From: the human T2T-CHM13v2.0 reference genome, Homo sapiens
Length of the DNA stretch: 64,000 nt
Direction: 5' to 3' (one strand)
Assembly: GCF_009914755.1 (NCBI RefSeq)
Contig: NC_060947.1
The notes under the pieces were generated by a model. It searched no databases and was not told where the DNA came from. It saw only the letters and a program-made list of their open reading frames with translations. Positions 25,515 through 28,090 of the stretch are shown here, one piece after another. Within the stretch, counting starts at the first letter, position 1. Each line of letters starts with the position of its first letter. The translations under genes were made by a program, and so were the position numbers.

Positions 25515-25616
25515 CATGTCGTATGCCATCTGAGAAAGCAGGGTCTTGGATGGCCTTCTTGAGGAAATTCAACATGGATTTCAGAAGTGCTGCTCGTTGT
25601 GGAATACACTGGACTC
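25515..25616 (-). CDS. HUWE1: HUWE1 coding exon 15, [10 protein letters not shown]...DGIRH
   Basis: 102 nt, cag/gtattt, phase 1-1. Confidence 0.96.
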
Positions 25617-26143
25617 CTGGCAATGAAGAAAGACAAAAGAATTATGCTGAGTTCGCCATTAAACCACAATGATCAAGCACATAAAACAAAATTTTAAGAG
25701 ATCCAAATACACTATAATAAAATTAGAAGACATTCGAAGTGAGGTCTCTGAATGTTAGGAAGAATACTTAATTAAGCTTTGAAATTGGAAAAATTACTAA
25801 TACTTTTAATTTTACCAATACTAAAAGTCTAAAGTAAAAAAGAAAAATTACAAAGTAAAAAGGTTCAACTTTTTTTTTACCTCACTCAGTTCCCATTTTG
25901 GATATTATCTGCCCTCCAACATGGCTGTTTTGATAATCAATGTGCAAATTGTTGGAAAAGTATAAAATGCTATGAAAGACATGTTAATATAAGAAAATGG
26001 AACACCAGAATGGTGAAGGAGCATGAATAGTCATGGGATGCTAACCTCCAAATGTACCATTTAAGTTCTGCCTAAAGCCGCCTTCTTCAATAGTTTAATA
26101 ACTCTACCACTCTGAAAGACTGCACATCTATGTGTGTACGCAC

Positions 26144-26392
26144 CAGGACGGGGGCCAGGGCCAGGGCCGGGGCCAGGGCCGGGACCAGGACCGGGGCCGG
26201 GGCCGGGGCCAGGGCCGGGGCCGGGGCCGGGGCCGGGGCCGGGGCCGGTGCCGGGGCCGGGACTGGGACCAGGGCTGGGGCCAGAAGAGATGTTAGTGCT
26301 GCTGCTGGAACCTGATGCCCTTAATTCAACATCCAGCCTGTGCTCCATAGAGATGGATGAGCCTGGACTGCTTTCCATAGCCACATCTGCAA
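26144..26392 (-). CDS. HUWE1: Putative HUWE1 alternative cassette exon encoding a Ser-rich plus (GP)16 insert (83 codons; 81 if the acceptor at 26386 is used)
   Basis: Acceptor tactttag|ttgcag|, donor CTG|gtgcgt, 249 or 243 nt, phase 1-1, no stop in the HUWE1 frame. Confidence 0.8.
26151..26282 (+). repeat. Interrupted (GGGGCC)n hexanucleotide repeat, 22 units
   Basis: 12 perfect GGGGCC units, longest pure run 5 (26217-26246); variants AGGGCC, GGGACC, AGGACC, GGTGCC, GGGACT, AGGGCT. Confidence 0.97.
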
Positions 26393-26571
26393 CTAAAGTA
26401 CAAGTTATGATAAAGAAACTTACTAGAATAAAAGGTACCACAAAAAGAAAAATTTTGTTTGAGAAAATTTCTTCCATTAATGTGAAATGAATATAAAAAT
26501 GAAGATCAGGAATACTGAACCCCAAAATGAAAATATATCACTAGTTGCATGTATTAATACGTACATACATA

Positions 26572-26574
<3 letters not shown>

Positions 26575-26608
<34 letters not shown>
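26575..26608. repeat. (TG)n microsatellite; (CA)n in the pre-mRNA
   Basis: About 17 dinucleotide units. Confidence 0.97.
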
Positions 26609-27089: not shown

Positions 27090-27270
27090 ATCACTGCAGC
27101 CTCAAACTCCCAGGCTCAGATGATCCTCTCAACTCAGCCTCCCAAGTAGCCGGGACCACAGGTGCATGCCACCCCACCCGGCTAAGTTTTGTATTTTTCG
27201 TAAAGACAAGATTTTTGCCATGTTGCCCAGGCTGGCCTCGAACCCCTGGGCTCAAGTGATGTGCCAGCCT
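27090..27270 (-). mobile_element. Alu fragment (AluJ-like)
   Basis: tcactgcagcctcaaactcccaggctc...ttgcccaggctgg. Confidence 0.88.
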
Positions 27271-27761
27271 AACGGATGTTGTTGCCTACCCAACAACCTT
27301 TTTACCTCTCCTTTCTCTTCTCAAAATAGGTAAAGTTTTAAAAGGTCCCATTTTAGTCTCTCTCTCTCTACCAAGCATATTTCTAACACCTAGGATGTTA
27401 TCAGGCACTGCGGCAGTGAAAAAGACAATATCCTGATCCCATGGAGCTTGAATTTTAGTAGAAATAAGACAATAAGAAATACATAAGAAAATTACGTGAT
27501 GAAATAAAACAGATTAACACCACAGCTATAGCATCTGCTTTACCTGCCATCTCTACTCCAAAGAACTAGTACCTTTCTTTTCTTATTATCTTTGTGAAAA
27601 ACAAATTTGCAAATCACTTACATAGAAAAAAAATTTTTGTTGCTGAAAGTATATACTCAAGTTAATTGTGTACTTTGGAATTTATGAGGAAGAATGAAAA
27701 CTGGGGTGGGATGACAAAAAATCTCAAGCACAAAAATACTGACTTAATAACTGTTAATTAC

Positions 27762-27867
27762 CATCCATATCAGTTTCCATTTCCTCTCCTTCTTGTGTAG
27801 TATTGGGTCTCTGGATCTTTGGCTTGATCACAAACGGACATTCTTTTCGGCACAAATCTACTTCATG
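27762..27867 (-). CDS. HUWE1: HUWE1 coding exon 14, [10 protein letters not shown]...METDMD
   Basis: 106 nt, tag/gtaatt, phase 0-1. Confidence 0.96.
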
Positions 27868-28090
27868 CTACAATCAAGAGAAAGGTTATAAGAAAATCAA
27901 GTATATATATATATATATATTTTTTCAGGGATTAAAAACTATTATAATGGAAAAACACTGCAAGCAGATACACAGTTGATTTCTAGAAACAGAAGAGACT
28001 GTAAGATCGCTCTTTAGGGTTATCAGGACAATCCTTAGGTTCAGCTCTGAGTATTAAATTCTGTGCAAAGCATTCCTTGTATAATAATAC

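What the first reader, a model, noticed from the sequence alone, without database searches (positions are those of the whole stretch)
26144..26392. Exonised GGGGCC-type repeat: a frame-preserving HUWE1 cassette exon encoding endogenous poly-(Gly-Pro)
Seen: the phase-1 intron between ...ETDMD and GVQCIPQ... contains a segment with acceptor tactttag|ttgcag| and donor CTG|gtgcgt. It is 249 nt (or 243 nt), stop-free in the HUWE1 frame, and reads VADVAMESSPGSSISMEHRLDVELRASGSSSSTNISSGPSPGPSPGPGT(GP)16RP. In the 16-unit GP core all 7 deviations from GGCCCC are at third codon positions (5 CCC>CCT, 2 GGC>GGT). Caveat: the CCC>CCT changes are also ordinary CpG transitions. Known: GGGGCC is the C9orf72 ALS/FTD repeat unit, poly-GP is one of its dipeptide products and a biomarker, and the canonical HUWE1 protein lacks this insert. 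Inference: a regulated isoform carries a roughly 80-aa low-complexity insert in the acidic loop after D496. It could be a physiological poly-GP protein, cross-react with anti-GP antibodies, and be an off-target of repeat-directed oligos. It may already exist in predicted or minor transcript models.
Basis: partly seen in the sequence, partly recalled or inferred. Interest (0 to 1): 0.85.

Follow-up and report, generated by a model that had tools for sequence, protein, structure and literature searches.

The report
Ancient HUWE1 exon carrying Gly-Pro repeat
An optional, already annotated HUWE1 exon that dates back to early vertebrates has, on the lineage to humans, grown a run of sixteen glycine-proline pairs from the DNA repeat unit known from C9orf72 ALS/FTD, so it is a curiosity and a possible assay confounder, not a new kind of gene feature.

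Summary
On the minus strand, 26392..26144 is a 249-nt (243-nt with the second AG) phase-1/phase-1, stop-free segment with AG/GT sites. It reads VADVAMESSPGSS...(GP)16RP between HUWE1 D496 and G497. The hub table already lists it as an exon of other RefSeq transcripts.

The exon was not created by the repeat. Gene models or intron-less contigs from bison, pangolin, wombat, birds, tortoise, sturgeon and lamprey carry the same cassette with a conserved start (V-x-D-V-A/T-M-E-S-S-P-G). They have at most (GP)2 where human has 23 hexamer units.

One intron-less HUWE1 fragment on chr16 of the same genome joins upstream exon, cassette and downstream exon exactly at the predicted junctions. Its tract has 8 units. 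This is a fossil of the inclusion mRNA and suggests growth from 3 to 8 to 23 units.

The HUWE1 RNA carries GGCCCC, the C9orf72 antisense type, not GGGGCC. The tract is interrupted: 12 of 23 units are perfect and the longest pure run is 5. It was screened in ALS without expansion (He 2016).

No human RNA or protein data could be reached, so inclusion level, antibody cross-reaction and oligo off-targeting remain untested.

The parts
26144..26392 (-). HUWE1 alternative cassette exon, 249 nt, phase 1 to phase 1, 83 codons, no stop
   Evidence: The hub table lists 26144-26392 as an exon of other RefSeq transcripts. Both junctions are reproduced in the chr16 intron-less fragment.
26387..26392 (-). 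TTGCAG between two tandem acceptor AGs; using the second AG gives a 243-nt exon that starts D-V instead of V-A-D-V
   Evidence: The pangolin model P0004 reads ETDMD|DVTMESS, the distal AG. P0002, P0003, P0005, P0006, P0052 and the chr16 fragment use the proximal AG.
26355..26392 (-). Conserved start of the exon: V-A-D-V-A-M-E-S-S-P-G-S-S, the vertebrate-wide motif V-x-D-V-A/T-M-E-S-S-P-G-P/S-S
   Evidence: 37 of 49 database hits carry [DE][VM][AT]ME[STG]SP. At positions not fixed by that pattern: V1 in 35 of 38, G11 in 33 of 38, S13 in 34 of 38.
26283..26354 (-). Ser-rich variable middle part (ISMEHRLDVELRASGSSSSTNISS), conserved among eutherians and divergent beyond them
   Evidence: Alignment; identities of 77-96% to eutherian fragments.
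26145..26282 (-). In-frame hexamer tract of 23 units of GGCCCC type (12 perfect, longest pure run 5), encoding GPSPGPSPGPGT(GP)16RP
   Evidence: Other eutherians have GPGPRP or PGPRP here. The chr16 fragment has 8 units.
26151..26246 (-). (GP)16 core; its first five units (26217-26246) are the only pure (GGCCCC)5 run
   Evidence: The exact pattern match at G000:C23:52912217-52912246 equals window 26217-26246.
26393..26420 (-). Acceptor region: 14 of 20 pyrimidines at -23..-4, then AG
   Evidence: 26 annotated exons: mean 15.5, range 11-20. The translated upstream intron is nearly identical in another mammal: P0051 has FILTSFFIITFTL against human FILVSFFIITCTL.
26138..26143 (-). Donor intron bases GTGCGT; the 9-mer CTG|GTGCGT matches 6 of 9 consensus positions
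   Evidence: 26 annotated exons: mean 6.5, range 4-8.
27762..27867 (-). Upstream constitutive exon ending ...ETDMD plus one G
   Evidence: Hub table.
25515..25616 (-). Downstream constitutive exon starting (G)VQCIPQ
   Evidence: Hub table.
26575..26608 (-). (CA)17 in the sense RNA, 183 nt upstream of the acceptor; a candidate splicing-regulator site (inference only)
   Evidence: TRF and sequence. The link to CA-repeat-binding hnRNP L is recalled, not tested.

Best explanation
This is an ancient, vertebrate-wide alternative cassette exon of HUWE1.

When it is included, it inserts a disordered Ser/Pro-rich segment between D496 and G497. That point lies in an acidic surface loop of the first armadillo-like domain (ARLD1, aa 1-840), and the fold is not disturbed because the exon is phase 1 to phase 1 with no stop.

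The functional payload is most likely the conserved first 13 residues (V-x-D-V-A/T-M-E-S-S-P-G-x-S). This looks like a short linear motif with a proline-directed serine in an acidic setting. I infer that it acts in cis or in trans on ARLD1's peptide-binding surface.

The remainder is a spacer that is free to change in length and composition. In that spacer, a GGC-CCC-GGC-CCC-CGT-CCT ending (GPGPRP in other eutherians) became a slippage-prone in-frame hexanucleotide microsatellite. It grew to about 8 units by the time a piece of the mRNA was captured on chr16, and to 23 units (16 uninterrupted GP) in this human genome.

The (GP)16 run is most likely a tolerated by-product rather than the reason the exon exists.

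Shown: the exon anatomy, its deep conservation, the short tract elsewhere, and the spliced fossil.

Inferred: disorder, motif function, neutrality of the GP run, and present-day inclusion in human tissues.
For: 1. Anatomy.

2. Annotation: the hub table lists 26144-26392 among exons of other RefSeq transcripts.

3. Orthologues.
- A search with the non-repeat part of the exon gave 5 hits among 155 candidates. All 5 are HUWE1 fragments holding the cassette at 77-96% identity.
- A second search gave 49 hits among 917 candidates. Of these, 37 carry the motif, 3 are skip forms and 9 are other.
- Named carriers are bison, pangolin, wombat, many birds, a tortoise, a sturgeon and a lamprey.
- Junco has both forms modelled (P0016 with the cassette, P0048 without).

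4. Intron-less contigs. P0006 (529 aa on 1848 nt, 10 member sequences), P0003 (376 aa on 1629 nt), P0002 (234 aa on 1330 nt) and P0052 span many exons plus the cassette. They must therefore derive from spliced RNA.

5. GP run length is 16 in human and 2 in P0002-P0005. P0060 and P0065 have one.

6. Fossil. G000:C16:38406022-38406290 joins 35 nt of the upstream exon, a 156-nt cassette and 78 nt of the downstream exon with both junctions exact.
- It differs from the parent at 13 of 221 non-repeat positions plus one 3-nt gap.
- It has an in-frame stop and 8 hexamer units.
- It keeps the Thr codon seen in other eutherians.
- It is the only other copy of any of the three exons in the genome.

7. 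Tract-wide, 12 of 16 deviations fall at codon position 3.

8. The insert point lies in ARLD1. A basic pocket (K143, R144, Y391, H392, R431, R434) with peptide-like density, and a preference for phosphorylated substrate, are described in passages of PMC8476073.
Against: - No human RNA-seq, long-read or proteomic data could be queried, so present-day inclusion in human tissue rests on the RefSeq models alone.
- None of the three word-index searches nor the 1.84-billion-protein search returned a human-like spliced fragment with a long GP run.
- Many bird models are genome annotations with intron read-through, so they show conservation of the sequence, not use of the exon.
- The hit lists were drawn with words from the cassette. 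The 37:3 ratio therefore says nothing about inclusion level.
- The chr16 fragment sits inside a multi-copy element. The mRNA it records may have come from any cell that produced that element, and its tract may have changed length after capture.
- The excess at position 3 could mean selection for Gly-Pro, which would argue against 'by-product'. It could equally reflect non-independent slippage copies. CpG transitions alone (7 synonymous C>T against 2 Gly>Ser G>A) are not significant (p = 0.18).
- The motif's function is pure inference.
Confidence: 0.72

Rival explanations
1. Relic in humans. The exon is ancient, but in the human lineage the 138-nt, 89% G+C tract next to the donor has made it a rarely used, functionally negligible exon. 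On this view the RefSeq models record splicing noise.
For: - The splice sites are average to slightly below average: donor 6 of 9, acceptor 14 of 20 pyrimidines.
- The predicted fold pairs the tract into a long imperfect hairpin that reaches the donor.
- No human-like spliced fragment appeared in any of the four protein database searches.
- All structural work used the skip form.
Against: - The frame is intact over 83 codons.
- 12 of 16 tract deviations are synonymous-type.
- The non-repeat part is 77-96% identical to other eutherians.
- The fold is no more stable than shuffles (z = +1.2; 89 of 100 shuffles fold at least as well).
- The databases searched cluster at 90% or 50% identity and cap lengths. 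Full-length human isoforms could not appear, so absence there is weak evidence.
Confidence: 0.15
2. The Gly-Pro run is itself selected. It would act, for example, as an extended flexible or polyproline-II-like spacer that sets the reach of the conserved motif, or as a binding surface. Its growth in primates would then be adaptive.
For: - All 5 non-CpG transitions in the tract sit at the one synonymous site among four possible (p about 0.001 if independent).
- 16 uninterrupted GP pairs persist despite 7 nucleotide changes.
- The dead chr16 copy has more Ser and His codons in its 8 units.
Against: - Deviating units can be copied by slippage, so the events are not independent.
- The 5' six units of the same tract do carry Gly>Ser and Pro>Thr changes.
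- Tract length is at most 3 units in every non-primate sequence seen, and this part of the exon is the least conserved across vertebrates.
- Small length variation is tolerated in people (passages of PMC4865132).
Confidence: 0.08
3. One reading: a GGGGCC repeat in an intron was exonised, creating a new primate-specific cassette exon.
For: The repeat makes up 138 of 249 nt and guarantees an open frame. The exon is missing from the selected NM transcript (hub table).
Against: The same exon, with the same phase, the same start motif and the same ...[RK]PG end, is present in species with no repeat, from lamprey to bison.
Confidence: 0.02

Closest known systems
Conserved frame-preserving alternative cassette exons that encode disordered segments with short linear motifs
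   Same: Length is a multiple of three with no stop. Splice sites are weaker than average. The exon and its proximal upstream intron are conserved, both isoforms are modelled, and the insert falls in a surface loop.
   Different: Tissue regulation and the motif's partner are unknown here. The 3' half has been taken over by a hexanucleotide microsatellite.
C9orf72 GGGGCC/CCCCGG repeat and its poly-GP product
   Same: Same DNA hexamer. The encoded dipeptide is the one made from C9orf72 in a sense and an antisense frame (recalled). (GGCCCC)5 occurs exactly at only 12 loci in this genome, and this exon is one of them.
   Different: The HUWE1 RNA is the C4G2 type only. Translation is ordinary, in frame and inside a roughly 4450-aa protein, not repeat-associated non-AUG translation. 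The tract has 23 interrupted units rather than hundreds of pure ones. No expansion was found in 199 ALS patients and 136 controls (abstract and passages of PMC4865132).
Lineage-specific coding microsatellites (amino-acid repeat growth in disordered regions)
   Same: In-frame unit, shorter tract in relatives, interruptions at synonymous sites, and small population variation.
   Different: It sits in an alternative exon, so only one isoform carries it. The unit is a hexamer encoding a dipeptide rather than a trinucleotide.
TDP-43-repressed cryptic exon of HUWE1 (Humphrey et al. 2017, PMC5446763)
   Same: A non-canonical HUWE1 exon that matters to ALS/FTD research.
   Different: That exon is 85 nt (chrX:53551990-53552074 in their table) and causes a frameshift. 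This one is 249 nt and frame-preserving, so they are different exons.

Membership tests
Conserved alternative cassette exon | Canonical AG...GT boundaries in the host gene's strand and phase; length a multiple of 3; no in-frame stop | tested here: met
Conserved alternative cassette exon | Orthologous exon present in distant species | tested here: met
   37 of 49 hits carry the motif, from lamprey to eutherians.
Conserved alternative cassette exon | Both inclusion and skipping occur in real transcripts | tested here: inconclusive
   The skip form is the NM transcript and the PDB constructs (hub table). Inclusion is seen in RefSeq alternative models (hub table), intron-less non-human contigs and the chr16 fossil. 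No human RNA data were available.
Conserved alternative cassette exon | Regulated (tissue or stage) inclusion | not testable with these tools
   No RNA-seq resource was available. Six literature searches that paired HUWE1 with a splicing or repeat term found nothing on this exon. Two broader HUWE1 searches and the HUWE1 review passages read also found nothing.
Exonised repeat (exon born from a repeat) | Exon absent where the repeat is absent | tested here: not met
   The exon is present with 0-2 GP pairs in non-primates.
C9orf72-type pathogenic hexanucleotide expansion | Long pure tract, unstable, expanded in patients | tested here: not met
   12 of 23 units are perfect and the longest pure run is 5. 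There was small variance and no expansion in ALS cases or controls (passages of PMC4865132).
C9orf72-type pathogenic hexanucleotide expansion | Dipeptide made by repeat-associated non-AUG translation | not tested
   Here the GP frame is the host ORF's own frame. RAN translation is not needed and was not examined.
Coding microsatellite / amino-acid repeat expansion | In-frame unit, shorter in relatives, interruptions mostly synonymous | tested here: met
Poison (NMD) exon or TDP-43 cryptic exon | Introduces a stop or frameshift | tested here: not met
   The published HUWE1 cryptic exon is a different 85-nt frameshifting segment.

The most novel reading that the evidence does not exclude
The inclusion isoform is translated in some human cells and is a genuine physiological poly-GP protein with a primate-grown (GP)16 epitope. 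It is long enough to be bound by antibodies raised against (GP)8-type peptides. Independently of splicing, the abundant HUWE1 pre-mRNA offers perfect 18-30-nt GGCCCC targets to any oligo or RNA-guided tool aimed at the C9orf72 antisense repeat, and the DNA offers targets to tools aimed at either strand. In addition, the vertebrate-conserved DVAMESSPG motif may be a phospho-switch that engages ARLD1's basic peptide pocket, giving HUWE1 an isoform-specific autoregulation that no structural or biochemical study has yet looked at.
Probability: 0.2. Interest if true: 0.65.

Novelty: new member of a known kind. Interest (0 to 1): 0.42.

Why it matters
HUWE1 is an essential, X-linked intellectual-disability gene, and the structural papers read here used the skip isoform. 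An unstudied exon conserved since lamprey, inserted in ARLD1 some 60 residues after the arginines of a phosphopeptide-like pocket, is a concrete lead for isoform-specific regulation.

For the C9orf72 field, poly-GP is an assay target. An endogenous (GP)16 and a perfect C4G2 match in a highly expressed essential gene are cheap to check and worth knowing when repeat-directed reagents are designed.

For repeat evolution, the locus shows a dated three-step series (about 3, 8 and 23 units) of a hexamer growing inside a coding exon.

None of this is a new kind of system. The exon is already in RefSeq models, and the repeat has been genotyped in ALS cohorts.

Tried and rejected
Full-length primate isoforms therefore could not be examined, and the expansion could not be dated from orthologues.
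- The 1.84-billion-protein search gave 82 hits. Only P0051, P0060 and P0065 match the non-repeat part as HUWE1. I fetched 6 of the 82. Of the four others, P0056 matches only through the repeat part of the query (residues 34-81), and P0093, P0096 and P0114 are unrelated low-complexity proteins. The remaining 75 not previously fetched (P0051 had been fetched) were judged only by matched range and identity.
- The RNA fold of the exon with its flanks is no more stable than shuffles (z = +1.2), so there is no evidence for a special structure.
- The TDP-43 cryptic exon in HUWE1 is a different exon.
- Pfam finds nothing meaningful in the cassette peptide: two sub-threshold low-complexity matches, 15.6 bits against a cutoff of 100 and 13.5 against 27. 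It also finds nothing meaningful in six open frames flanking the chr16 fragment: five gave no match and one gave a sub-threshold hit of 12.9 bits against a cutoff of 25.
- There is no second LTR-like copy within 20 kb of the chr16 fragment, so it could not be dated from LTR pairs.
- The supplement of He et al. 2016, with repeat sizes and primers for HUWE1, could not be read, and Table 1 is not in the held text. Allele sizes in people are therefore not known to me.
- The 10 literature searches found no paper linking HUWE1 to poly-GP or describing this exon. Searches were too loose to be informative.
- Complex prediction and structure prediction were not used. A disordered, phosphorylation-dependent contact is outside what they can judge.

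Full report
**What is in the sequence**

Read on the minus strand (the HUWE1 strand), window 26392..26144 is flanked by ...tactttag|TTGCAG|ATG at the acceptor side and CCTG|gtgcgt at the donor side. With the single G left by the upstream exon (27762-27867, ending ...GATATGGATG) it reads 83 codons without a stop: VADVAMESSPGSSISMEHRLDVELRASGSSSSTNISSGPSPGPSPGPGT(GP)16RP. The last G then completes the Gly of GVQCIPQ in the downstream exon (25515-25616). Skipping it gives ...ETDMDGVQCIPQ..., the canonical protein.

Alignment to PDB HUWE1 chains (9plq, 9plr, 7jq9 and others) places the insert exactly between D496 and G497. It also shows that the solved constructs are the skip form.

Tandem Repeats Finder reports period 6, 22.0 copies, at 26151-26282, with consensus GGGGCC on the + strand. 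The hub table already lists 26144-26392 as an exon of other RefSeq transcripts.

**How much is chance**

The open frame containing the exon (158 codons) is the longest stop-free frame of the whole window on either strand. However, 65 frames of at least 83 codons lie outside the NM exons, and a repeat made only of G and C cannot hold a stop. An open frame alone would not convince.

All 26 annotated exons in the window have AG and GT where expected.
- The cassette donor matches 6 of 9 consensus positions (window mean 6.5, range 4-8).
- Its acceptor has 14 of 20 pyrimidines (mean 15.5, range 11-20).

These are ordinary, slightly sub-average sites, as is common for alternative exons.

**The third-position argument**

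Within the 16-unit core the 7 deviations are indeed 5 CCC>CCT and 2 GGC>GGT. But the core was defined as the stretch that translates to pure GP, so this is true by construction.

Taking all 23 units (codons 38-83), there are 16 deviations from GGCCCC: 12 at codon position 3, 4 at position 1 and none at position 2 (p = 8e-4 against one third).
- CpG transitions split 7 synonymous (C>T) to 2 Gly>Ser (G>A), p = 0.18.
- The five non-CpG transitions all fall on the one synonymous site of four possible (p about 0.001 if independent).

Since slippage copies deviating units, independence is doubtful. I take this as mild support for coding constraint, no more. Only 12 of 23 units are perfect and the longest pure run is 5 units.

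**The exon is old; the repeat is young**

A search with the non-repeat part of the peptide returned 5 proteins among 155 candidates. All are HUWE1 fragments that contain the cassette between ETDMD and GVQCIPQ. They are bison, giant pangolin and three unnamed entries.

A second search, with one of these and words drawn from the cassette and 15-20 flanking residues, returned 49 proteins among 917 candidates. I fetched all of them and classified them:
- 37 carry [DE][VM][AT]ME[STG]SP.
- 3 are clean skip forms (goose, junco, fairywren).
- 9 are other: 8 with a different, non-vertebrate-like loop, and one bird model with read-through.

Carriers include wombat, many birds, a tortoise, a sturgeon and a lamprey.

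At positions not fixed by my pattern, V1 is kept in 35 of 38 sequences, G11 in 33 of 38 and S13 in 34 of 38. The rest of the exon is variable and low in complexity. It ends in [RK]-P before the shared Gly in mammals, sturgeon and lamprey.

The 8 non-vertebrate-like fragments have a constitutive loop that also ends P-[KLI]-P-G before [VL]TCLPQ. This hints that the cassette descends from an older constitutive loop segment.

The ratio 37:3 says nothing about inclusion level. The words came from the cassette, fragments identical to the canonical protein are probably absorbed into its cluster, and many bird entries are genome-annotation models with intron read-through.

Where human has 23 units, bison, pangolin, P0002 and P0003 have ...SGPGPRP, a GP run of 2. 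Two further mammal-like fragments have ...CPGPRP. Wombat, birds and fish have no GP run. The repeat therefore expanded inside an existing exon, and 'exonised repeat' is the wrong direction.

**Evidence that the exon is spliced into mRNA**

Several unnamed entries sit on contigs far too short to hold introns:
- P0006: 529 aa from Met1 to the cassette on 1848 nt, with 10 member sequences.
- P0003: 376 aa on 1629 nt.
- P0002: 234 aa on 1330 nt.
- P0052: on 989 nt.

These are listed. In human the same residues are spread over more than 28 kb of this window. These contigs must derive from spliced RNA (or from retrocopies of it) in non-human mammals.

**A fossil in the same genome**

Searching the window's own assembly with the exon's non-repeat part found one other copy, on contig C16. 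Aligned to a spliced cDNA built from the window's exons, it covers three pieces in order:
- the last 35 nt of the upstream exon,
- the cassette,
- the first 78 nt of the downstream exon.

Both junctions are exact...GATATGGATG|TTGCAGATG... and ...CATCCTG|GAGTCCAGTG.... No other HUWE1 exon lies within 20 kb. Each flanking exon, searched alone, finds only the parent and this locus. So the single retro-derived fragment of this part of the mRNA carries the cassette.

It differs from the parent at 13 of 221 non-repeat positions plus one 3-nt gap (Jukes-Cantor distance 0.061). It has an in-frame TAA and keeps the Thr codon of other eutherians where human now has Ala.

Its tract has 8 units (GPSPSPSPGPSPGPHP). 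With recalled neutral rates of about 1-2 x 10^-9 per site per year, and most change on the dead copy, this suggests some tens of millions of years. That estimate is rough. The series of about 3 units (other eutherians), 8 (fossil) and 23 (this genome) fits gradual growth, with the caveat that the fossil's tract may have changed after capture.

The fragment lies inside a multi-copy element. Its two flanks each have at least 40 matches in the genome. At three other loci the flanks lie 2.5-3.5 kb apart, against under 0.5 kb here. The HUWE1 piece therefore seems to replace internal sequence of that element. I read the element as retrovirus-like from a purine tract followed by a high-copy segment, but Pfam gave no support. 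Whichever route captured it, spliced inclusion mRNA was the template.

**Which repeat it is at the RNA level**

GGGGCC is on the + strand and HUWE1 is transcribed from the minus strand, so pre-mRNA and mRNA carry GGCCCC. This is the C4G2 sequence of the C9orf72 antisense transcript.
- Reagents against sense G4C2 RNA would not pair with HUWE1 RNA.
- Reagents against C4G2 RNA would find perfect sites of up to 30 nt, in the pre-mRNA whether or not the exon is included.
- DNA-directed tools would see both strands.

(GGCCCC)5 occurs exactly at 12 loci in this genome (29 overlapping matches). One of them, by its position, I recall to be C9orf72.

**What is in print**

- He et al. 2016 (PMC4865132; abstract and passages) genotyped the HUWE1 G4C2 repeat in 199 ALS patients and 136 controls. 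They found only small variation and no expansion. The word 'exon' does not occur in the held text. Table 1 and the supplement could not be read.
- HUWE1 with 'poly-GP' gave one unrelated review. HUWE1 with 'poly GP' gave none.
- HUWE1 with GGGGCC or G4C2 gave 11 and 5 papers, with none but He et al. on this locus.
- A (GP)6 string gave 10 papers. Judged from the 8 titles and abstract openings listed (none was opened), one concerns collagen peptides and the other seven are C9orf72 dipeptide-repeat or model studies; none names HUWE1.
- HUWE1 with VNTR or 'cassette exon' gave nothing on this exon.
- The HUWE1 cryptic exon induced by TDP-43 loss (PMC5446763) is 85 nt and frameshifting, so it is a different exon.
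- Subscription journals and unread supplements may hold more.

**Mechanism**

Shown: an alternative, frame-neutral exon inserts 83 (or 81) residues at D496|G497.

Established context: ARLD1 spans aa 1-840. ARLD repeats bind extended peptides. A basic pocket (K143, R144, Y391, H392, R431, R434) holds peptide-like density, and phosphorylated substrate binds better (passages of PMC8476073).

Inferred: the conserved acidic, Ser-Pro-containing start of the insert is the functional element. It is possibly a phospho-dependent intramolecular or partner-binding motif near that surface. The tail is a spacer, and the GP run is a tolerated by-product of slippage.

The (CA)17 tract 183 nt upstream of the acceptor may recruit CA-repeat-binding splicing factors. 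That is recalled biology and was not tested.

**Verdict**

The feature is real, already annotated, and ordinary in kind: a conserved alternative exon with a lineage-specific coding microsatellite. Its appeal lies in the coincidence with the C9orf72 repeat and in an unstudied, very old HUWE1 isoform. Human inclusion level is the missing fact.

Noticed in passing
G000:C16:38406022-38406290 (L002:1467-1735): A 269-nt intron-less piece of HUWE1 mRNA (upstream exon, cassette, downstream exon) sits inside a multi-copy interspersed element. At three other loci the element's two flanks lie 2.5-3.5 kb apart. It looks like capture of host cDNA in place of internal element sequence. My reading of the element as retrovirus-like comes from recalled features only; Pfam was silent.
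   Followed up: partly
window 26575-26608: A (CA)17 tract in the sense RNA, followed by a UG-rich stretch, lies 183 nt upstream of the cassette acceptor. It is a possible binding platform for CA- or UG-repeat-binding splicing factors.
   Followed up: no
P0035, P0037, P0040-P0043, P0045, P0047 (database proteins): Non-vertebrate-like HUWE1 fragments have a constitutive acidic loop at the same place, 22-32 aa in the three where it could be delimited. In all eight it ends P-[KLI]-P-G before [VL]TCLPQ, like the end of the vertebrate cassette. The cassette may be an old constitutive segment that became skippable in vertebrates.
   Followed up: no
G000:C23:152578101-152578154 (-) and G000:C23:152627036-152627083 (+): Two further X-linked pure GGCCCC runs of 9 and 8 units lie in opposite orientation about 49 kb apart, presumably arms of an inverted duplication. 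In all, 12 loci in this genome hold (GGCCCC)5.
   Followed up: no
P0010, P0012, P0015-P0021, P0030-P0033, P0038, P0046 (bird HUWE1 models): Many deposited bird gene models read through the short introns on one or both sides of the cassette (for example ...ETDMEGEQRG...PPAVTDVAMESSPG...). The insert lengths in these models are therefore annotation artefacts.
   Followed up: partly
window 27100-27290: An Alu-like element in sense orientation lies in the intron upstream of the cassette, and a (TA)9.5 run lies at 27902-27920. Both are ordinary intron content.
   Followed up: no
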